Shown here piece by piece: positions 23,057 to 58,245 of a stretch of 64,000 nt of DNA (the stretch's first letter is position 1; each line of letters starts with the position of its first letter). The position numbers and the translations under genes were made by a program. The notes below the pieces were generated by a model, which had not been told where the DNA came from, made no database searches, and saw nothing but the letters and a program-made list of their open reading frames with translations. This DNA comes from Methanomassiliicoccales archaeon (GTDB taxonomy: Archaea; Thermoplasmatota; Thermoplasmata; Methanomassiliicoccales; JACIVX01), in NCBI GenBank assembly GCA_050010535.1, contig JBEKKT010000007.1:6052-70051 (forward strand), read 5' to 3'.

Positions 23057-23836
23057 TTAATCCTTGGCCTCCGCTCCCCCCATCACCTTCCTTGCAAAAA
23101 CCATGTACCCAGTGTGCCCGAGCGTGTCGAATGACGGCCTGACGCCGCCGGGGTGAACTTCGATCGTGCGCTGTATGTTCTCGAGAGCATCGATCTCCAC
23201 GAATCCAGATGCTCGGAGTTTGATCACTGTGCTCTCGACCTGGTTCATGTTCGGAACGAACGCGCAGAAACGGCCTCCTCCCTTCATCATCCTCTTGACG
23301 TTCTCCACGGCTTCCCATGGATCGGGGATGTCTAGGACGACCGCGTCCGCCTTCAGGTCCATTTGATCGGTTCTGATATCTCCGATCCTAAGCTCCCAGT
23401 ATTTTTCTAGTCCGGTCCTCGAGATGTTCCTTCTAGCCTTCACCGTGAATTCGTCTCTTAGTTCCACAGAGACGACCTTCCCTTCAGGCCTTATCGAGTT
23501 CAGCAGTGAGGTCGTGAGCGATCCAGAGCCGACGCCGCCTTCAATGACCACATCCCCGCATTTAAGATCGAGTCTCTGGACGATCGTCGCAGCATCCTTT
23601 CCCCCGATGACCTGCGGCCCTCGCTCGATTGATTCCATGAGCTCTGGCGTCCCGGGGCAGAGCACCCAGAGGGTCTTGTCTGCTACCGAGATCCTCGACC
23701 CGCTCTCCATTCCGACAAGCCTTGAGCCGTCTAGGACTCCCAACCCTTCGATTTTGATCATCGCGGATCGGATAGCAGCCCAATGCCTTTTGCCCTGCTC
23801 GTCGAGCAGGTAGACGAGCTCTCCGTCCCGAAGCAT
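23057..23836 (-). CDS. trmI: tRNA (adenine-N1)-methyltransferase TrmI/Gcd14
   Basis: N-terminal beta-barrel-like GELVYLLDEQGKRH. SAM motif VIEGGVGSGSLT. DIPDPWEAV. Confidence 0.85.
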   Translation of the reverse strand: MLRDGELVYLLDEQGKRHWAAIRSAMIKIEGLGVLDGSRLVGMESGSRISVADKTLWVLCPGTPELMESIERGPQVIGGKDAATIVQRLDLKCGDVVIEGGVGSGSLTTSLLNSIRPEGKVVSVELRDEFTVKARRNISRTGLEKYWELRIGDIRTDQMDLKADAVVLDIPDPWEAVENVKRMMKGGGRFCAFVPNMNQVESTVIKLRASGFVEIDALENIQRTIEVHPGGVRPSFDTLGHTGYMVFARKVMGGAEAKD

Positions 23837-40150: not shown

Positions 40151-40318
40151 GTGATTCCGATTGAGCGGAACGATATAAATGCTTTTCCCGGTATCCCTGT
40201 CGCACTTCAATTGAAGAGTCCATTCAACTGACGAGATGCGGGAACTTACTCAATTGCTTCCCCTTGAAGTGGGATTTGCCAGATGCATCAGAATAGGGCC
40301 GAGATCGACTTCGATATC

Positions 40319-40328
40319 TTTATTTACA
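40319..40328 (+). promoter_or_regulatory. TATA-box-like element of tRNA-Lys
   Basis: TTTATTTACA is centred about 28 nt upstream of tRNA position 1. Confidence 0.4.
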
Positions 40329-40350
40329 ATGACCCTATATGCCCCGCTCA

Positions 40351-40447
40351 GGGCCCGTAGCTCAGCTAGGTAGAGCAATCGGCTCTTAACCGATGGGTCG
40401 AGGGTTCGAAAGGTTCTCCACAGAATCCGAACATCCCTCCGGGCCCG
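40351..40447 (+). tRNA. tRNA-Lys (anticodon CUU) with an intron in the T-loop
   Basis: Hand-folded. Acceptor GGGCCCG/CGGGCCC, D stem GCTC/GAGC, anticodon stem ATCGG/CCGAT with loop CTCTTAA, variable GGGTC, T stem GAGGG (40400-40404)/CCCTC (40435-40439). 30 nt lie between the T-stem halves. No CCA is encoded. Confidence 0.85.
40411..40433 (+). other. tRNA intron (23 nt) at position 59/60, in a bulge-helix-bulge motif
   Basis: 4-bp helix TTCG (40405-40408)/CGAA (40428-40431), flanked by 3-nt bulges AAA (40409-40411) and CAT (40432-40434). Inner helix GGTTC/GAATC. Excision leaves the T-loop TTCGAAT. Confidence 0.7.
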
Positions 40448-40468
40448 CTCTCCCTTGGGGGGCTGCCT

Positions 40469-41233
40469 TTGAGGAACATCTACTTCATCGGGACGGCGGG
40501 AAGCGGTAAGAGTTCTCTTGTCCATGCATTCCGAGAGTGGATGGCGATTAACGGTCTCGACAGCGTGACGCTTAACCTTGACCCGGGAGCGGAGGCGATT
40601 CCTTATATCCCGGACATCGACATCCGAGACTGGGTCCGTCTGGACGACGTCATGAGCGAATACGCCTTGGGACCGAACGGAGCTCAGATCGTTTGCTCCG
40701 ACATGATAGCCCTGAACACCAAAGAGGTCGTCTCGACGGTTGACACGTTCAAATCGAACTACTTGCTCATCGACACTCCTGGTCAGATGGAACTGTTCGC
40801 GTTCCGGCAGTCGAGCTCGGTCGTCGTCGAGGCGCTAGGAAGGGAGGATTCGTTCCTCGTCTTCTTATCTGACCCGCAACTTTCCAAGACGCCCTCCGGA
40901 TTCGTGTCGAACCTGATGCTTTGCGCCGTGACCCACTTTCGGTTCATGATCCCCTTCTTGAACGTCTTGTCCAAGGCGGACATGCTGGACGAGGAGGAAA
41001 CAGAGAAGGTCCTTGGCTGGTCGAGGGACCCCTACAGTCTCTATGATTCACTGGGTCAGGAGCAGGGCACACCCCAAACCATCCTCAGCATTGAGCTGTT
41101 CAAGGCGATGGAGAACATCGGGATGTACAGGGAGCTTGTGCCGGTGTCATCCGAGACTCCATCTGGAATGGAGGATATCTACAATACGATACAGCAGGTG
41201 TTCGAGGGCGGAGAGGATCTCAGTCCGGACTGA
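40469..41233 (+). CDS. GPN-loop GTPase
   Basis: GTAGSGKSS P-loop, LGPNGAQIV GPN motif, IDTPGQMELF. TTG start 22 nt after the tRNA. Confidence 0.85.
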   Translation: MRNIYFIGTAGSGKSSLVHAFREWMAINGLDSVTLNLDPGAEAIPYIPDIDIRDWVRLDDVMSEYALGPNGAQIVCSDMIALNTKEVVSTVDTFKSNYLLIDTPGQMELFAFRQSSSVVVEALGREDSFLVFLSDPQLSKTPSGFVSNLMLCAVTHFRFMIPFLNVLSKADMLDEEETEKVLGWSRDPYSLYDSLGQEQGTPQTILSIELFKAMENIGMYRELVPVSSETPSGMEDIYNTIQQVFEGGEDLSPD

Positions 41234-52008: not shown

Positions 52009-52755
52009 ATGAAGATCATCGCCATAATGACCGACAATTTCAGATTCTTCTATCAGATCGTCCAAGATCTGAAGGAGAAGGACGAACCCTTCATCTCCCT
52101 GGGCTTTGGGGACCACGTCCCTCCTGCGGTCGGAGTGATCATCACCACCGAGGCCGAGAAGACCAGGATAACATTCCCTACCGTCGTCGCTGACGACGAT
52201 CCCTATCAGGCCGTCGATGTCGCGTCGGCGATATTGAAGGGCGGTAAGGATTTTGAGAACCTGAAGATAGGTATCGACCCTGGAAGCAGACCAGGATTGG
52301 CTGTCCTAGGTGACGGTAAGGTGTTGTTCACCGACGCCGTTCGTTCCCCGGAACAGGTTGCGGACACCATTGATCACGTCCTTGTCTGTTTCACTCACGC
52401 CAACTCTGTTGTCAGAATTGGCCACGGCGACAGAACGAACCGAAATCGTATTATCAAGGCGATCTGGGACAAGGTGGACGAGGTTGAGATCGTTGACGAG
52501 ACGAACACGACTACCAGAAGCGACACCCCTGACGTCGATGCGGCGCTCAGCATCGCGACTTCATCGGGGCATAGACTTTCTTCCCCGCCCGAGATCTCGC
52601 CCACCGCGGGCGAAATCCGCGACATACAAAGGCTGAGCAGGATCGAGAGCGGGGGCAGGGTGACAATATCATCTCTGCTGGCCAAAGCAGTGGCGCGGGG
52701 TGAGCTGACGCTGGATGGGGCTATAAGGGCACAGAGCAAGAAGGTCAGACGTTGA
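52009..52755 (+). CDS. Hypothetical protein with RuvX/YqgF-like RNase H-fold signature
   Basis: IGIDPGSRPGLAVLGDGKVLF, VEIVDETNTT and PDVDAALSIA resemble the YqgF catalytic motifs (GiDpG, vDErlTT, vDa.AA). The N-terminal 85 aa are unassigned. Confidence 0.45.
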   Translation: MKIIAIMTDNFRFFYQIVQDLKEKDEPFISLGFGDHVPPAVGVIITTEAEKTRITFPTVVADDDPYQAVDVASAILKGGKDFENLKIGIDPGSRPGLAVLGDGKVLFTDAVRSPEQVADTIDHVLVCFTHANSVVRIGHGDRTNRNRIIKAIWDKVDEVEIVDETNTTTRSDTPDVDAALSIATSSGHRLSSPPEISPTAGEIRDIQRLSRIESGGRVTISSLLAKAVARGELTLDGAIRAQSKKVRR

Positions 52756-54271
52756 CCCTTGAGAAGGAAGGAATCTTAGCAAGGAGCATCCCTTCTATAG
52801 ACACTGAATCCGTCCTCCTTGCCATGTCGGCAGCCCGTTCGAGCTTAAGCTCGTTTTCTGCATAGATTGTGTATAGCGTCTCGCCCATCTCGACCTGGTG
52901 CCCCCTCTTCTTGTTCAGCAAAATCCCTGCACCTTTATCCTTCGGAGCACCGGCAAGTCTAGCTATCCGAACCAGGTCCTTGTTGTTGATCGCAGAAACG
53001 TATCCAGATTTCCTGGCGGCAACATCGTAAGTGTACTGACCTACCTTTATATCCTTTGACTTGACGTTCGGGTCACCACCCTGGGCCTGTACGATTTCCT
53101 TGAACTTCTTCAGGGCCCTCCCGGACTCAAGGATTTCCTTGGCCCTCTCGACACCATTGCCTATTCCGCCCAGTTCGAGGAGCATGCCCGCTAATCCGCA
53201 GGACTTCTCGATGACACTTCCTGGGTACTTCTTCTCCCCTTCCAGTATGCTGATAGCCTCTCTAGCCTCCAGAGACGGTCCGATTGCCCTACCTACAGGC
53301 TGTCCTCCGTAGGTGACAGCGCACTCGACCTTTATTCCGAGCGCTTCGCCCAGGTCGATGAAGTCGCGGGCGTACGCCCTCGCCTCATCCATATTCTTGA
53401 CCTTGGTCCCCTCTCCCATCGGTATGTCTATGACCACGTAATCGGCGCCGGCCGCCTTCTTCTTCGACATGACGGATGCGAGCAGCTGGGCGTGAGGATC
53501 GATGCCAAGCGGATACTCCACTCTGATTATCAGATCGTCCGCCGGTGCCAAGTTCATGGATCCTCCCCAAGCCAACGTCCCTCCCACCTTCTCGGCTATC
53601 CTTTTCAGATCGGACGAGCTGAACTCGACAGGGGCGAACACCTCCACGATGTCTGCGGTGCCTCCGGCACTGCTGATCGCCCTCGAAGACGTCTTTGGTA
53701 TGAGAAATCCAGCGGCTGCGACGATCGGGACGATAATCAGCGTCACCTTGTTACCTGGTACGCCGCCGACGCTGTGGAAATCGAAGACTGGGGAGCGATC
53801 GAATTCGATGGTCTCCCCACTCTCCACCATAGCGATCGTGAGATCCACAGTCTCGCGGAGGTTCATGCCATTGATGTGGAGCGCGGTCACGTAAGCCGAC
53901 ATCTCGATGTTGGACAGATTCCTCGCCGCGATGTCGCCCACTAGATTCCTTATCTCCTCTGTGGAGAGCTCCCCTCCGTCCATCTTCTTCTTTATGCAGT
54001 CGACGGACTCCGGCCTGCCAGTACAAAGTACCTCGACCTCTTCCCCGGATTCCGCATGGAGGGTTGTGAAGGTCTTCCCGAGTATCCCGATCTCGCCTGG
54101 GTTCACGACGGAATCGGTCGTGTGAACGATGGCCGTGATGGTGTCCTTGGTCTCGTGCTTGATCTTGACTCTGTCTTGCTCTCTGACGCCGAGTTCCATG
54201 CAGTCCTCCTCGTGGAGGACTGCAGTCAGTTCTCCGGTGTCCATGTCGATGTATCTCGCTTTCAGTTTCAT
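52745..54271 (-). CDS. deoA: AMP phosphorylase (thymidine phosphorylase family)
   Basis: MKLKARYIDMDTGE N-terminal domain typical of archaeal AMPpase, plus glycosyltransferase family-3 core motifs (HSVGGVPGNK, SSRAISSAGGTAD). ATGA overlap with the rbcL stop. GTG 54283 is an alternative start. Confidence 0.9.
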   Translation of the reverse strand: MKLKARYIDMDTGELTAVLHEEDCMELGVREQDRVKIKHETKDTITAIVHTTDSVVNPGEIGILGKTFTTLHAESGEEVEVLCTGRPESVDCIKKKMDGGELSTEEIRNLVGDIAARNLSNIEMSAYVTALHINGMNLRETVDLTIAMVESGETIEFDRSPVFDFHSVGGVPGNKVTLIIVPIVAAAGFLIPKTSSRAISSAGGTADIVEVFAPVEFSSSDLKRIAEKVGGTLAWGGSMNLAPADDLIIRVEYPLGIDPHAQLLASVMSKKKAAGADYVVIDIPMGEGTKVKNMDEARAYARDFIDLGEALGIKVECAVTYGGQPVGRAIGPSLEAREAISILEGEKKYPGSVIEKSCGLAGMLLELGGIGNGVERAKEILESGRALKKFKEIVQAQGGDPNVKSKDIKVGQYTYDVAARKSGYVSAINNKDLVRIARLAGAPKDKGAGILLNKKRGHQVEMGETLYTIYAENELKLERAADMARRTDSVSIEGMLLAKIPSFSRVNV

Positions 54272-55524
54272 CCCGATCCCCACCTTTCGAGAGCGATTCC
54301 GAGCTCTCTGTGATCCTTCGCGTAGACGTCCAGTGGAGTCCCTTGGAAAGCCGCGTCTACCGCCTGGGACATCGCAGCCGCGCCCGCCCGGATGCCTTCC
54401 GGGTGTCCTGCGACGCCTCCCCCTGCCTGTATCTGGATGTTGTTTCCGGCGATCTCGATCAGCTTGCGGACAAGACTCGGATGAACTCCGCCGGAGCAGA
54501 CGGAGATCATCGGCCTGTATCTGACCTCATTGTCTTTGCAAGCCCGCTGCGTCTCCAGATCCTCCTTCGGGTCACCCTTCATCTTGCCGACTCCGAATGT
54601 CCCGACGTGCAAAGCATCTCCTCCGCACATGCGGATGAGCTTGGCCATGGGTCGCATCGCTATTCCGTGATCCTTGTTCCTCGTTATTGCCGCATGCATC
54701 GTCCTGTGGACGTGTATCGGTACTTTGATCGATGGATCCTCCGCCAGGGCCTGGACGGCCGAAAAACCGCAGGTCAGGACGTCGACCATAATCTCGGTCG
54801 CACCGAGTTTCTGGGCCTTCTCAGCCACCTCGACAATCTTGTCCCCTCGAGTCGAGACGTTGATCGCGTGTATCATGACGTGACCGGACTCGCTTTTCAA
54901 CCTGTCGAGCGCCTCAGCAATTGCCACGACCCGATTCTCCAGCGGGCAGAACTTCTGGTCGACCAGGGTCTCGTCGTCCTTGCCGTTCGTGAGTCCGCCC
55001 ATGCCCGCTTCGAAGACGTACGCCGCCGTTTCCTTTGGAGACAGTCCAATCTTCGGCTTGACTATCGTCCCGACTAGCGGTTTCTCCGGTCTCTTCAAGA
55101 TGTTCCTGATTCCCTGTATCCCGAACTTAGGTCCTTTGAACGCGTCAAGGATCGAACGAGGGAACTCGACGTCCTCGAGGCGTATGCCCTTCAGGATCTC
55201 CAGCCCAAAAAGGTTGCCCGCGATGATGCTCAGTATCTGCGGAACGCCCCCGACTTCGAGGCTGAAATCCTCGACAGGAAAGGCAACGGTCACAATGTTG
55301 CCCTTGATGTCGATGACCTTCCCGCTCAATCTGGAGAAGATGTCCTTATGAAGCGTCGTCAGTCCCGTCCAAGTGCCCGTCGATTGCTCGGTGGCTATCG
55401 CCGCCGCGGCCCTCCTCATGGGAAGGTCGGTCTTCACCTTGTACTTGCAGATGACGTGCGCATCAAGGTCTATCTTCTCGCCGAGATGCAGATACTTCCC
55501 AGAGTATTCCATGTGAATCACCAA
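54268..55524 (-). CDS. rbcL: RuBisCO large subunit, form III
   Basis: Catalytic residues are in place: KPKIGLS, GKDDE (carbamylated Lys context), HVHRTMHAA, LHVGT, GKMKGD, CSGGVHP, QAGGGVAGHP. The start may be ATG 55512. Confidence 0.9.
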   Translation of the reverse strand: MVIHMEYSGKYLHLGEKIDLDAHVICKYKVKTDLPMRRAAAAIATEQSTGTWTGLTTLHKDIFSRLSGKVIDIKGNIVTVAFPVEDFSLEVGGVPQILSIIAGNLFGLEILKGIRLEDVEFPRSILDAFKGPKFGIQGIRNILKRPEKPLVGTIVKPKIGLSPKETAAYVFEAGMGGLTNGKDDETLVDQKFCPLENRVVAIAEALDRLKSESGHVMIHAINVSTRGDKIVEVAEKAQKLGATEIMVDVLTCGFSAVQALAEDPSIKVPIHVHRTMHAAITRNKDHGIAMRPMAKLIRMCGGDALHVGTFGVGKMKGDPKEDLETQRACKDNEVRYRPMISVCSGGVHPSLVRKLIEIAGNNIQIQAGGGVAGHPEGIRAGAAAMSQAVDAAFQGTPLDVYAKDHRELGIALERWGSG

Positions 55525-55525
55525 A

Positions 55526-56449
55526 TCATCTGTTGAGAACCGTTTCCGATCCCAGTTCCTTCATTATAATGTCGTAAGCTGAGTAGGGCGAGATGACCCC
55601 GACCTCCGTGACTATCGAATCGACGTAGTCGGCTGGCGTAGCGTCGAACACGGGATTGAGTATCCTCACGTTCGTGGAAATCTCGCCCTCCCTGACTATT
55701 TCACCGGGGTCTCTCTCCTCTATCTCTACGAGCTCACCGTAGACGGTCTTCGGAGAGAACTTGAAGGTCTCGGCGCAGACGATGAACGGCACTCTGGCTT
55801 CATGGGCCGCGAGGGCGATCTGAGACGTACCGATCTTGTTTATTACGGCGCCATTCGACGCGATCGTGTCCGCGCCGACGTACACCAGATCGATGTCCTT
55901 CATTGCCCACCGGACAGCACTGTCGATGATGAGTGTAGTGGGAATGGCCTCTTTCGCAAGTTCATTGACCGTCAGCAGGCCCTGCCTCCACGGTCTTGAC
56001 TCGGTGGCATAGACCTCGATGTTCTTCCCTTCCGAGAAGGCCGTCTTCATGACGCTTAGGGCCGCCTTACTATTGCAATGCGTCAGGATGCGCTCGCCTC
56101 CTTTGATGCGCTGCGAGCCAATCCTTCCGATCGTGTTCACCGCTTCCTTCGACCGAGCGACGAAGCAATCAGCATTCGAGGCGACGAGGCTCTTGAGCTC
56201 CTTCACGCTCTTGGCGTCCTTGGCTCCTCGTGACACGGCCTGCACAGCATTCCAGAGGGATATCGCCGTGGGCCTCGTCGAAAGGAGGAGGCCCTTGCTT
56301 TCTTCGAGCTCCTTCTTGAATCGATCGAGATCCTTCCCGCTGAACTCCTGCGCCATTTCCTTCAGCGCACCAGCAGCTGCCCTGGCTATTTCGCCGGCAC
56401 CCCGGATCTCCATCGTCTTGATCGACTGCGCCACTTTCCTCAAGCTCAT
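55526..56449 (-). CDS. e2b2: Ribose-1,5-bisphosphate isomerase (eIF-2B alpha/beta/delta-like family)
   Basis: 307 aa. IRGAGEIARAAA, THCNS, VGADTIASNGAVINKIGT. Immediately upstream of rbcL. Confidence 0.85.
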   Translation of the reverse strand: MSLRKVAQSIKTMEIRGAGEIARAAAGALKEMAQEFSGKDLDRFKKELEESKGLLLSTRPTAISLWNAVQAVSRGAKDAKSVKELKSLVASNADCFVARSKEAVNTIGRIGSQRIKGGERILTHCNSKAALSVMKTAFSEGKNIEVYATESRPWRQGLLTVNELAKEAIPTTLIIDSAVRWAMKDIDLVYVGADTIASNGAVINKIGTSQIALAAHEARVPFIVCAETFKFSPKTVYGELVEIEERDPGEIVREGEISTNVRILNPVFDATPADYVDSIVTEVGVISPYSAYDIIMKELGSETVLNR

Positions 56450-56532: not shown

Positions 56533-58245
56533 TCAAATTCCCAAAGTCCTCTCGAGGTCTTTCAGTGGGAGGGTGTTTATGACGTCCTTGTTCCCAAGCC
56601 AACCTCTTCTTCCTGTGGCGACGCCGAACATCATGTAATTCAGCTGAGGTATGCTATGTGCATCGGTCCCAATGGACAGAGTGACTCCCCTATCCTTCGC
56701 CTTCCTGCAGTTCAGGTCGTTGAGATCGAGCCGCTCCGGGAGGGCGTTTATCTCAAGGAAGACTTTTTTCTCCAACGCGGCATCCATCACCCTGTCAATA
56801 TTGACTTGGTAGGGCTCTCTTTGCTCAATGACCCTTCCTGTCGGATGCGCCAGGATTGTGAGGTAGTCGTTCGACATCGCGGCGACAATCCTGTCCGTCA
56901 TCTCCTTCTCATCCATCTTGAATCCGGAGTGGACAGATCCGACCACGAAATCGAGATCCTTCAGCATGCTATCTGGATAATCTAAGGTCCCATCGTTGCG
57001 GATCTCGACCTCCGTCCCCATGAGGACTCTGATCCCTTCTGTCTTCCCGGAGACACTTCTCACAATCTCGACGTTCCTCATCAGGTCCTCCTTCGAGACT
57101 CCGCCCGCCACCTTTAGTGATTCCGAATGGTCGGTTATTCCGATGTACTCGTACCCCCTGTTCTTGGCCTCAAGCGCTATTTCTTCCACCGTCGCGCTCC
57201 CGTCGCTTAGAGTCGAGTGCACGTGAAAATCACCCTTGATATCTCCGAGTTCAAGCAAGATAGGGAGTCTGTGGTCGATAGCAGCCTTGATCTCCCCTCT
57301 GTTCTCGCGGATCTCCGGCGGCATCACCTCAAGATCGAGAGCAGCATACACCTCCTCCTCTGTCCTGCTGGCTATCCTCTCATCAGTGTCCTTTGTGAAA
57401 ACCCCATACTCGTTTATCTTGAGTCCTTTGTCGATCGCAAGCGACCTCAGCGAGATGTTGTGCTCTTTGGACCCGGTGAAGTACTGGAGCGCCGCACCAT
57501 AGCTGTCAGTTTCCACCACTCTGATGTCGACCTGCACCCCCTCCTTCAGCCTGATGCTCGATTTCGTGTCGCCCTTCGCGATGACCTCCGAGACGTTCGG
57601 ATTCCTGACGAAAATATCCATTACATTCTTGGGCTCGTCGCTGCCGACAAGGATGTCTATGTCGCCGATCGTCTCCCTCATTCGACGGAGGCTCCCCGCG
57701 ACGCTTATCAGCTTGTAGCCTCCGGCCGTCACCATGTAGTCGACAATGCTTTTTGCGTAGAAGTACGCGTATCCTAGGAGCATCCGACCAGTTCGTTGCT
57801 CGAGAAGCTGGATCCCTTTGAGTATATTCTCTTCCGACCTACCGCCGAAGCCCTTCAGCCCGCGGATCCTGTGGTCCTCGGCCGCTTTCTTCAGCTCGTG
57901 TAGGTTCGTTATTTTCAGTTCCTTGTACAAACGCATGATCGTCTTCGGCCCGATCTCCGGGACCGTCATGATTTGGAGCAGTCCGACTGGGAACTCCTCT
58001 CTCAGTTCCTTCAGATAATTCAGCTCTCCAGACTGGATAATCTCGGCGACCTTCTTCGCGATTGCCTCCCCTATGCCCGGGATCTCTCGGAGCTTACCCT
58101 CTCTGTAGTACTCCTGGATATCCTTGTCAAGCTCCTCGATGTTCCTTGCAGCCCTTCTGTATGCTCTGGGTTTGAACTCGACCCCCTTCAGTTCCAGAAG
58201 ATCGGCTATTTCATAGAGGACCTGGGCCACCTTCTCGTTGGTCAT
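56533..58245 (-). CDS. polX: Family X DNA polymerase with C-terminal PHP domain
   Basis: HhH motifs, GSLRRMRETIGDIDILV nucleotidyltransferase motif, PHP motif GDFHVHSTLSDG. Confidence 0.9.
   Translation of the reverse strand: MTNEKVAQVLYEIADLLELKGVEFKPRAYRRAARNIEELDKDIQEYYREGKLREIPGIGEAIAKKVAEIIQSGELNYLKELREEFPVGLLQIMTVPEIGPKTIMRLYKELKITNLHELKKAAEDHRIRGLKGFGGRSEENILKGIQLLEQRTGRMLLGYAYFYAKSIVDYMVTAGGYKLISVAGSLRRMRETIGDIDILVGSDEPKNVMDIFVRNPNVSEVIAKGDTKSSIRLKEGVQVDIRVVETDSYGAALQYFTGSKEHNISLRSLAIDKGLKINEYGVFTKDTDERIASRTEEEVYAALDLEVMPPEIRENRGEIKAAIDHRLPILLELGDIKGDFHVHSTLSDGSATVEEIALEAKNRGYEYIGITDHSESLKVAGGVSKEDLMRNVEIVRSVSGKTEGIRVLMGTEVEIRNDGTLDYPDSMLKDLDFVVGSVHSGFKMDEKEMTDRIVAAMSNDYLTILAHPTGRVIEQREPYQVNIDRVMDAALEKKVFLEINALPERLDLNDLNCRKAKDRGVTLSIGTDAHSIPQLNYMMFGVATGRRGWLGNKDVINTLPLKDLERTLGI

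What the first reader, a model, noticed from the sequence alone, without database searches (positions are those of the whole stretch)
40351..40447. tRNA-Lys(CUU) interrupted by a 23-nt intron in the T-loop (59/60) with a canonical bulge-helix-bulge motif
All four stems fold cleanly, but the T-stem halves GAGGG (40400-40404) and CCCTC (40435-40439) are separated by 30 nt instead of 7. The insert forms a textbook hBHBh' motif:
- the T stem;
- a 3-nt bulge CAT (40432-40434);
- a 4-bp helix TTCG/CGAA (40405-40408 / 40428-40431);
- a 3-nt bulge AAA (40409-40411);
- an inner helix GGTTC/GAATC (40412-40416 / 40423-40427).
Cutting at the same relative position in both bulges removes 40411-40433 and leaves the consensus T-loop TTCGAAT. 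Non-canonical intron positions are well known in Crenarchaeota but uncommon in euryarchaeal lineages, and default scanners or the 91-aa antisense ORF can mask the gene. A GPN-loop GTPase gene starts 22 nt downstream.
Basis: seen in the sequence. Interest (0 to 1): 0.6.

Follow-up and report, generated by a model that had tools for sequence, protein, structure and literature searches.

The report
Lysine tRNA gene with T-loop intron
This is a real lysine tRNA gene from a methane-cycle archaeon, interrupted by a 23-base intron in an unusual place (the T-loop); it is a known kind of archaeal intron that standard tRNA finders miss, so it is a useful annotation but not a new mechanism.

Summary
Window 40351-40447 (+) is a tRNA-Lys(CUU) gene whose T-stem halves are 30 nt apart instead of 7.

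- **Splice test.** Removing 40411-40433 gives a 74-nt tRNA that ARAGORN calls tRNA-Lys(ctt). On the unspliced DNA, ARAGORN finds nothing and Rfam's tRNA model scores 28.9 bits against a threshold of 29.
- **Structure.** The insert plus T-arm folds as a strict 3-4-3 hBHBh' motif.
- **Host.** The organism is an uncultured member of the Methanomassiliicoccales.
- **Orthologues.** The gene sits upstream of a GPN-loop GTPase gene in many relatives. Seven other distinct orthologues carry an intron at 59/60. All eight sequences pair at 100% of stem positions, with compensatory changes in 4 of 5 inner-helix pairs and free variation in the loop.
- **Junction.** Intron-less orthologues have exactly the predicted junction, TTCGAAT.
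- **Promoter.** A BRE/TATA-like element is conserved upstream.
- **Intron states.** Other orthologues have no intron, a 37/38 intron, or both, so intron content at this locus is patchy.

The kind is known. Position 59/60 is a published non-canonical site, and tRNAscan-SE 2.0 already counted 6 non-canonical introns in 3 Methanomassiliicoccales genomes. No RNA data exist, and the host endonuclease was not examined. Verdict: new member of a known kind, modest interest.

The parts
40312..40326 (+). Putative archaeal promoter: a BRE-like CGATATC followed by the TATA box TTTATTTA (40319-40326). It ends 24 nt before the mature 5' end.
   Evidence: The motif CGATAnnTTTATTTA is conserved at the same distance upstream of the orthologous tRNA in intron-bearing and intron-less relatives. 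Its promoter function is inferred.
40351..40410 (+). 5' exon, tRNA positions 1-59: acceptor 5' strand, D arm, anticodon arm (anticodon CTT at 40385-40387), variable loop, T-stem 5' strand (40400-04) and T-loop nt 54-59 (TTCGAA).
   Evidence: Read directly. ARAGORN calls the spliced sequence tRNA-Lys(ctt). The exon is identical in relatives down to 72% GPN identity.
40411..40433 (+). 23-nt intron, AGGTTCTCCACAGAATCCGAACA. It comprises the third base of the 5' bulge, inner helix h' (40412-16 / 40423-27), loop 40417-22, the 3' strand of central helix H (40428-31), and the first two bases of the 3' bulge (40432-33).
   Evidence: The minimum-energy fold gives this structure. In the alignment with intron-less orthologues it is a clean 23-24 column indel. 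Helix h' shows compensatory changes in 4 of 5 pairs.
40405..40408 (+). 5' strand of the central 4-bp helix H (TTCG, T-loop nt 54-57), pairing with CGAA at 40428-40431.
   Evidence: Relatives have CGAA or CGAG, giving U-A or U.G at the first pair.
40409..40411 (+). 5' three-nt bulge AAA. The predicted 5' cut is between 40410 and 40411.
   Evidence: The cut position is inferred from BHB symmetry, from the bulges of L149, and from the junction in intron-less orthologues.
40432..40434 (+). 3' three-nt bulge CAT. The predicted 3' cut is between 40433 and 40434.
40434..40447 (+). 3' exon: T60, T-stem 3' strand CCCTC (40435-39), acceptor 3' strand CGGGCCC (40440-46) and discriminator G73 (40447). No CCA is encoded.
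40469..41233 (+). Neighbouring GPN-loop GTPase gene (PF03029). It starts 21 nt after the tRNA and is possibly co-transcribed with it.
   Evidence: The tRNA-Lys to GPN order is conserved in many relatives. Co-transcription is inferred only.

Best explanation
The locus is a functional tRNA-Lys(CUU) gene of an uncultured Methanomassiliicoccales archaeon.

Proposed sequence of events:
1. The gene is transcribed from a BRE/TATA promoter about 25 nt upstream, as a precursor whose T-loop is interrupted after nucleotide 59 by a 23-nt intron.
2. In the precursor, T-loop bases 54-57 (UUCG) pair with the 3' end of the intron (CGAA). This forms the 4-bp central helix of a strict 3-4-3 bulge-helix-bulge motif. 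The T stem is the outer helix and a 5-bp intron hairpin is the inner helix.
3. The archaeal splicing endonuclease (EndA) recognises this local motif independently of the tRNA body and cuts after the second base of each bulge.
4. An RtcB-type ligase joins A59 to U60, restoring the consensus T-loop UUCGAAU.

Position 59/60 is the sixth/seventh base of a 7-nt loop closed by a 5-bp stem, the exact geometric counterpart of the canonical 37/38 site in the anticodon arm. That explains how a strict motif can form there. Strictness matters because the alpha'2 endonucleases reported for this part of the Euryarchaeota accept only strict motifs.

Shown here: the sequence, the fold, the covariation, the predicted junction matching intron-less orthologues, and promoter conservation.
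Inferred: transcription, cleavage by EndA, ligation, and the endonuclease type of this organism.
For: **The sequence itself**
- The sequence and all stems are as described.
- The spliced product is a perfect tRNA-Lys(ctt) by ARAGORN, whereas the unspliced sequence is not detected.
- The minimum-energy fold of the T-arm plus insert is the 3-4-3 hBHBh' motif.

**Orthologues with the intron**
- Seven other distinct orthologues carry an intron at the same site and fold identically: L209, L004, L212, L006, L129, L138 and L149, with GPN identity from 90% down to 57%.
- Across the eight sequences 112 of 112 cells pair. Six pairs change on both sides, 4 of them among the 5 inner-helix pairs. Examples are GGTTC/GAATC, GGTTT/AAACC, GGTCC/GGACC and GAAGG/CCTTC.
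- None of 500 shuffles reached these values, and the slid-partner controls score far lower.
- Loop sequence and length vary freely.

**Orthologues without the intron**
- Intron-less syntenic orthologues have T-loop TTCGAAT, exactly the predicted junction.

**Expression signal**
- The upstream CGATAnnTTTATTTA element is conserved.

**Literature**
- Archaeal introns are defined only by the BHB motif, independent of tRNA structure (PMC10485636).
- Alpha4 and alpha2 endonucleases require a strict 3-4-3 hBHBh' motif (PMC3239211).
- Cluster II euryarchaea have alpha'2 enzymes, and the T. acidophilum enzyme has narrow specificity (PMC5829648; PMC6379350).
- 59/60 is a recognised non-canonical site (PMC4090602).
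Against: - There are no RNA data, so neither transcription nor splicing has been observed.
- The host's endonuclease and ligase genes are not in the window, and their type was not checked.
- The genomic sequence falls just under Rfam's tRNA threshold, although the intron explains this.
- A second, intron-less tRNA-Lys(CUU) elsewhere in the genome cannot be excluded. Only this 64-kb window could be searched, and it holds no other tRNA-like hit.
- The covariation set is small: 8 sequences, 5 of them from one clade. The tested structure was also derived from the window sequence, which inflates the percentage of cells paired, though not the double substitutions.
Confidence: 0.9

Rival explanations
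1. The locus is a tRNA pseudogene, or a tRNA with a non-excised T-loop insertion. On this view the 23 nt are insertion debris and the gene is dead or yields an aberrant RNA.
For: Scanners do not call the gene. Intron-less versions of the same gene exist in related lineages, so the insert is not universal.
Against: - Exons are perfectly conserved, with every stem intact.
- Eight diverged orthologues keep the exact 3-4-3 geometry with compensatory changes, while the loop drifts. That is selection on structure, not decay.
- The promoter element is conserved.
- No other tRNA-Lys(CUU) was found in the 64 kb.
Confidence: 0.05
2. The insert is a real spliced intron, but it is processed by a broad-specificity endonuclease or through different cut sites, giving a non-standard T-loop.
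For: In the window sequence the bulges AAA and CAT leave the cut register ambiguous by one base. The endonuclease type of this organism was not determined.
Against: - Both registers give the same product in the window sequence.
- In L149 only the cut after bulge nt 2 gives TTCGAAT.
- Intron-less orthologues have TTCGAAT.
- The motif is strict in all eight sequences, which is what a narrow-specificity enzyme would require.
Confidence: 0.03
3. The region encodes the 91-aa antisense protein (40250-40525, minus strand), and the tRNA-like fold is incidental.
For: The ORF is open and appears in the mechanical ORF list.
Against: - It was not called as a gene on near-identical contigs.
- It overlaps the start of the GPN gene.
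- Relatives differ by +1 or -1 nt inside it (introns of 24 and 22 nt), which would shift its reading frame.
- The conservation pattern is one of RNA pairing, not codons.
Confidence: 0.01

Closest known systems
Archaeal BHB introns at non-canonical position 59/60, for example ARMAN-2 pre-tRNA-Pro(GGG) (53/54 plus 59/60, strict hBHBh') and pre-tRNA-Cys(GCA) (59/60, relaxed hBH). See PMC3239211; 59/60 is also listed as a known site in PMC4090602.
   Same: The insertion point in the T-loop is the same, and the intron is defined by a BHB motif that uses the T stem as the outer helix. The intron is short, and removal restores a 7-nt T-loop.
   Different: The host is different: a Thermoplasmata-related euryarchaeon rather than DPANN or TACK. 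The isoacceptor is different (Lys-CUU). Here the motif is strict in every orthologue. ARMAN-2 has a broad-specificity epsilon2 enzyme, whereas an alpha'2 narrow-specificity enzyme is expected here but was not tested.
Canonical archaeal tRNA introns at 37/38 in the anticodon loop.
   Same: The 3-4-3 hBHBh' architecture is identical. The intron follows the sixth base of a 7-nt loop closed by a 5-bp stem, four loop bases pair with the intron 3' end to make the central helix, and the enzymes are presumably the same (EndA plus RtcB).
   Different: The motif is built on the T arm, not the anticodon arm. It therefore disrupts the T-loop/D-loop elbow rather than the anticodon loop, and tRNA finders that allow only 37/38 introns miss it.
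Non-canonical introns already counted in Methanomassiliicoccales by tRNAscan-SE 2.0: 6 in 138 tRNA genes of 3 genomes (PMC8450103 Table S7).
   Same: Same order of archaea and same class of feature.
   Different: The paper gives only counts. Which tRNAs and positions are involved is not stated in the text held. The sampled Methanomassiliicoccaceae and Methanomethylophilaceae orthologues of this gene are intron-less, so this particular intron may not be among those six.
Multiple non-canonical introns of Thermoproteales and Thaumarchaeota (PMC8450103, PMC4090602).
   Same: BHB-defined introns at varied positions, with evidence of gain and loss between relatives.
   Different: Those lineages use (alpha-beta)2 enzymes, tolerate relaxed motifs, and carry many introns per genome. 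Here a single strict intron is seen in one gene.
T-loop inserts in tRNA-Lys(CUU) of two Aenigmatarchaeota MAGs, found here (L056 at 2709-2778 and L128 at 570-659).
   Same: Same isoacceptor, with an insert in the T-loop after TTCGAA.
   Different: The inserts are 15 and 35 nt and have unrelated sequences. Their predicted folds are relaxed, not 3-4-3.

Membership tests
tRNA (tRNA-Lys, anticodon CUU) | Cloverleaf with 7-bp acceptor, 4-bp D, 5-bp anticodon and 5-bp T stems, and a 7-nt anticodon loop with U33. | tested here: met
   Read directly. ARAGORN draws a perfect cloverleaf for the spliced sequence.
tRNA (tRNA-Lys, anticodon CUU) | Conserved tertiary-interaction bases: U8, A14, G18-G19, A21, G53-C61, and U54-U55-C56-R57-A58. 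| tested here: met
   All are present in the spliced sequence. The T-loop is TTCGAAT only after the intron is removed.
tRNA (tRNA-Lys, anticodon CUU) | Reaches Rfam RF00005's gathering score on genomic DNA. | tested here: not met
   28.9 bits against 29, with a mis-aligned T arm. The shortfall is explained by the 23-nt insert. Intron-less orthologues are called normally by ARAGORN.
tRNA (tRNA-Lys, anticodon CUU) | Orthology to recognised tRNA-Lys(CUU) genes. | tested here: met
   The spliced sequence differs at only 3 of 74 positions from the intron-less syntenic tRNA-Lys(CUU) in L148.
Archaeal bulge-helix-bulge (hBHBh') intron | Two 3-nt bulges on opposite strands separated by a 4-bp helix. 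| tested here: met
   Bulges 40409-11 and 40432-34; helix 40405-08 / 40428-31. The same geometry is found in all 8 orthologues.
Archaeal bulge-helix-bulge (hBHBh') intron | Flanking outer (h) and inner (h') helices, making it the strict form. | tested here: met
   The T stem provides h (5 bp) and the intron hairpin provides h' (5-6 bp). Covariation is seen in 4 of 5 h' pairs and 2 of 5 h pairs.
Archaeal bulge-helix-bulge (hBHBh') intron | Symmetric cuts in the bulges leave a canonical mature RNA. | tested here: met
   In-silico removal gives TTCGAAT and a valid tRNA. This junction equals the sequence of intron-less orthologues.
Archaeal bulge-helix-bulge (hBHBh') intron | Actual cleavage by the splicing endonuclease and ligation by RtcB. 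| not testable with these tools
   No RNA-seq or enzyme assay is available.
Archaeal bulge-helix-bulge (hBHBh') intron | The host encodes a splicing endonuclease whose specificity fits the motif. | not tested
   No EndA or RtcB domain was found among the window ORFs scanned. The alpha'2 type is expected from the literature for this clade.
Self-splicing group I / group II intron | Catalytic core of hundreds of nucleotides. | tested here: not met
   The insert is 23 nt, and Rfam finds no intron family in the window.

The most novel reading that the evidence does not exclude
The conserved tRNA-Lys(CUU)-GPN locus of the Methanomassiliicoccales is a natural series of intron states: none, 37/38 only, 59/60 only, and both in one gene. 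This would document ongoing gain and loss of strict BHB introns in a euryarchaeal order that presumably has a narrow-specificity alpha'2 endonuclease. The 59/60 site would be favoured because it is the T-arm mimic of 37/38. If so, intron turnover is not confined to lineages with broad-specificity enzymes, and a single orthologous locus becomes available for studying how archaeal tRNA introns arise.
Probability: 0.4. Interest if true: 0.45.

Novelty: new member of a known kind. Interest (0 to 1): 0.3.

Why it matters
**Practical value.** The tRNA-Lys(CUU) of this lineage is invisible to ARAGORN and falls just below threshold in Rfam. Genome annotations of these MAGs may therefore wrongly report the isoacceptor as missing, and codon-usage or tRNA-loss analyses would inherit that error.

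**Conceptual value (modest).**
- It adds a well-supported, strictly canonical BHB intron at a non-canonical position in a euryarchaeal order. Reviews still state that euryarchaeal introns sit only at 37/38 (PMC4090602).
- The presence/absence pattern at one syntenic locus gives a tidy comparative set for intron gain and loss.

It reveals no new mechanism.

Tried and rejected
1. **Genome-collection census of T-loop introns in tRNA-Lys(CUU).** Almost all hits were bacterial tRNA-Lys genes with a chance GGCCC downstream. Only 4 archaeal loci were recovered: 2 intron-less and 2 Aenigmatarchaeota with T-loop inserts.
2. **Exact-protein look-up of the 254-aa GPN product.** Nothing was on record. The radical-SAM neighbour worked instead.
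3. **Marck and Grosjean 2003.** The paper could not be read by DOI or PMC id.
4. **Searching papers for '59/60'.** This is not possible because the slash is not searchable.
5. **M. luminyensis and the complete genome CP058896.1.** Neither has a tRNA upstream of GPN, so the state of their tRNA-Lys(CUU) is unknown.
6. **Covariance model of the T-arm plus intron.** It was searched over the window and 93 loci. It found no further intron-bearing copies beyond those already seen and no second copy in the window.
7. **Pfam scan of 30 window ORFs, plus precomputed domains for about 21 kb.** No splicing endonuclease or RtcB ligase was found.
8. **Hypotheses considered and rejected.** These were the antisense 91-aa ORF as a gene, a pseudogene, and a self-splicing intron (see the rival explanations).

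Full report
**1. Observation**

The + strand from 40351 to 40447 reads as a tRNA:
- Acceptor stem GGGCCCG / CGGGCCC.
- D arm GCTC-AGCTAGGTA-GAGC.
- Anticodon arm ATCGG-CTCTTAA-CCGAT, with anticodon CTT (Lys) at 40385-40387.
- Variable loop GGGTC.
- T stem GAGGG (40400-04) / CCCTC (40435-39).
- Discriminator G (40447).

The T-stem halves enclose 30 nt instead of 7. Within them:
- TTCG (40405-08) pairs with CGAA (40428-31).
- AAA (40409-11) and CAT (40432-34) are unpaired.
- GGTTC (40412-16) pairs with GAATC (40423-27) around the loop TCCACA.

RNAfold gives exactly this structure as the minimum-energy fold of 40400-40439. The whole 97-nt precursor has z = -3.87 against dinucleotide shuffles.

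- ARAGORN finds no tRNA anywhere in the 64-kb window.
- Rfam finds nothing at gathering thresholds.
- In E-value mode the only tRNA-like hit in the window is this locus, at 28.9 bits against a threshold of 29, with the T arm mis-aligned into the intron.
- Deleting 40411-40433 in silico gives a 74-nt sequence that ARAGORN calls tRNA-Lys(ctt), with a perfect cloverleaf and T-loop TTCGAAT.

**2. Host and surroundings**

The flanking genes are archaeal housekeeping genes:
- A CBS-domain protein and an MBL-fold hydrolase upstream, on the minus strand.
- A GPN-loop GTPase (PF03029) starting at 40469.
- An HTH regulator, the proteasome-activating nucleotidase, MBF1, a thermosome subunit and GrpE-DnaK-DnaJ.

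The best homologues of the GTPase and the hydrolase are annotated Methanomassiliicoccales archaeon. Near-identical contigs exist in JGI and Logan assemblies (L001, L003) and carry the identical tRNA. Their gene callers left the tRNA region empty.

No splicing endonuclease or RtcB domain was seen among the window ORFs scanned.

**3. Comparative evidence**

tRNA-Lys(CUU) immediately upstream of the GPN gene is a conserved arrangement in this order. I fetched orthologous loci through exact-protein look-ups and one metagenome scan and found four intron states.

| State | Loci (GPN identity to the window) |
|---|---|
| Intron at 59/60 only | window, L209 (90%), L004 (82%), L212 (76%, GCA_020725985.1), L006 (72%, GCA_049718775.1), L129 (69%), L138 (63%) |
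| No intron | L131/L132 (67-68%), L140, L142, L143, L144, L148 (56-58%); also a Methanomassiliicoccaceae MAG (L220, GCA_009777615.1), a Methanomethylophilaceae contig (L218) and L215/L216 |
| Intron at 37/38 only | L146, L151, L153, L155 |
| Both introns | L149 (57%) |

The eight distinct 59/60-bearing sequences all fold into the same 3-4-3 hBHBh' motif. On their alignment (A1):
- All 112 cells of the 14 proposed pairs are standard pairs.
- Six pairs show changes on both sides, including 4 of the 5 inner-helix pairs: GGTTC/GAATC, GATTC/GAATC, GGTTT/AAACC, GGTCC/GGACC and GAAGG/CCTTC.
- None of 500 shuffles reached the observed values, and sliding the partners by 1-3 columns collapses the signal.
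- The hairpin loop varies freely in sequence and length, giving introns of 22-24 nt.
- The central helix is constrained on its exon side (T-loop UUCG). The intron side is CGAA or CGAG.

Aligned with intron-less orthologues, the intron is a clean indel between A59 and T60. The intron-less genes read GGGTTCGAATCCC, which is the predicted junction.

In the window sequence the cut register is ambiguous by one base, because the bulges are AAA and CAT. In L149 (bulges AAT / ACT) only the cut after the second bulge base gives TTCGAAT.

Upstream, CGATAnnTTTATTTA lies 24-40 nt before the mature 5' end in both intron-bearing and intron-less orthologues. In the window the TATA box is at 40319-40326. This fits an archaeal BRE/TATA promoter.

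A covariance model of the T-arm plus intron found no second copy in the window.

**4. Mechanism**

Archaeal pre-tRNA introns are defined solely by the BHB motif, a 4-bp helix flanked by 3-nt bulges, independently of the tRNA body (PMC10485636). Alpha4 and alpha2 endonucleases require the strict 3-4-3 hBHBh' form, while (alpha-beta)2 and epsilon2 enzymes also accept relaxed forms (PMC3239211; PMC5829648). Cluster II euryarchaea, which include the Thermoplasmata relatives, are reported to have only alpha'2 enzymes. The T. acidophilum enzyme is alpha'2 with narrow specificity.

The intron here is strict in every orthologue, which is what such an enzyme would need.

Geometrically, 59/60 is the sixth/seventh base of a 7-nt loop on a 5-bp stem. 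It is the T-arm counterpart of 37/38, with loop bases 54-57 playing the role of 32-35. The best-supported model is therefore:
1. Transcription from the upstream promoter.
2. EndA cleavage at 40410/40411 and 40433/40434.
3. RtcB-type ligation.
4. Ordinary end processing and CCA addition, since no CCA is encoded.

Transcription, cleavage, ligation and the endonuclease type are inferred, not shown.

**5. Rival explanations**

- **Pseudogene or unexcised insertion.** This is contradicted by intact exons, compensatory substitutions and the conserved promoter.
- **Antisense 91-aa ORF (40250-40525).** It is not called on identical contigs, and the 22/23/24-nt length differences among relatives would shift its reading frame.
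- **Self-splicing intron.** It is excluded by size.

**6. Comparison with known systems and novelty**

Position 59/60 is a published non-canonical site (PMC4090602). ARMAN-2 has 59/60 introns in tRNA-Cys and tRNA-Pro.

Non-canonical introns are rare in Euryarchaeota overall: 25 in 6970 genes of 144 genomes. tRNAscan-SE 2.0 already counted 6 in 138 genes from three Methanomassiliicoccales genomes (PMC8450103 Table S7). No paper in the held library describes this specific intron.

The sampled Methanomassiliicoccaceae and Methanomethylophilaceae orthologues are intron-less, so this intron may be confined to uncultured sublineages. On a single-protein NJ tree of the GTPase, the five closest sequences form an all-intron clade. 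L129, L138 and L149 are scattered among intron-less lineages. That pattern is compatible either with an old intron lost repeatedly or with several gains, and the tree is too weak to decide.

**7. Verdict**

This is a real, very probably functional tRNA-Lys(CUU) gene with a strict BHB intron at 59/60. It is a new member of a known kind. It is useful for annotation and as a comparative series for intron turnover, but mechanistically ordinary.

| Score | Value |
|---|---|
| Interest | 0.3 |
| Confidence in the main explanation | 0.9 |

Noticed in passing
window 40448-40468 (spacer) and 40469-41233; also L140, L143, L209, L212: Only 21 nt separate the tRNA 3' end from the TTG start of the GPN-loop GTPase gene, and the spacer contains a G-rich Shine-Dalgarno-like run. 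There is no room for a separate TATA box. The tRNA-to-GPN order with a short spacer recurs across the order, which suggests a tRNA-mRNA co-transcript released by 3' tRNA processing.
   Followed up: partly
L146 19-124, L151 29-131, L153 460-560, L155 1361-1463, L149 1311-1436: Orthologues of the same tRNA-Lys(CUU) carry a 37/38 intron instead of the T-loop intron, and L149 carries both. The anticodon-arm inserts fold into BHB-like structures. Intron state at this single syntenic locus is therefore polymorphic across the order.
   Followed up: partly
L056 2709-2778 and L128 570-659 (Aenigmatarchaeota MAGs): The tRNA-Lys(CUU) genes of two DPANN archaea also have inserts after TTCGAA in the T-loop, of 15 and 35 nt. 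Their sequences are unrelated and their predicted folds are relaxed, not 3-4-3.
   Followed up: partly
window 23057-23836 (-): This ORF is a GCD14/TrmI-type tRNA m1A methyltransferase (PF08704). Its usual target, A57/A58, lies at the end of the central helix (A57's neighbour) and in the 5' bulge (A58) of this precursor's BHB. The order of methylation and splicing could therefore matter. That is speculation.
   Followed up: no
window 52745-56449 (-): A cluster of AMP phosphorylase-like (PF02885/PF00591/PF07831), form III RuBisCO large subunit, and an IF-2B-family ribose-1,5-bisphosphate isomerase. This is the archaeal AMP/nucleoside salvage pathway. A PolX-PHP polymerase is adjacent at 56533-58245.
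   Followed up: no
window 1-64000: Apart from this locus, no tRNA-like sequence was detected in 64 kb by ARAGORN or by Rfam in permissive mode.
   Followed up: yes
L215/L216 1253-1323 (+): ARAGORN also calls a 'tRNA-Arg(tcg)' on the strand opposite the intron-less tRNA-Lys(CUU), overlapping it almost fully. This is most likely an antisense artefact of the palindromic cloverleaf.
   Followed up: no
window 40469 versus the downstream ATG: Some public gene calls for the identical GPN protein are 230 aa, starting at an internal ATG (P0003, P0005), rather than 254 aa from the TTG. The 254-aa form matches the length of most homologues.
   Followed up: partly
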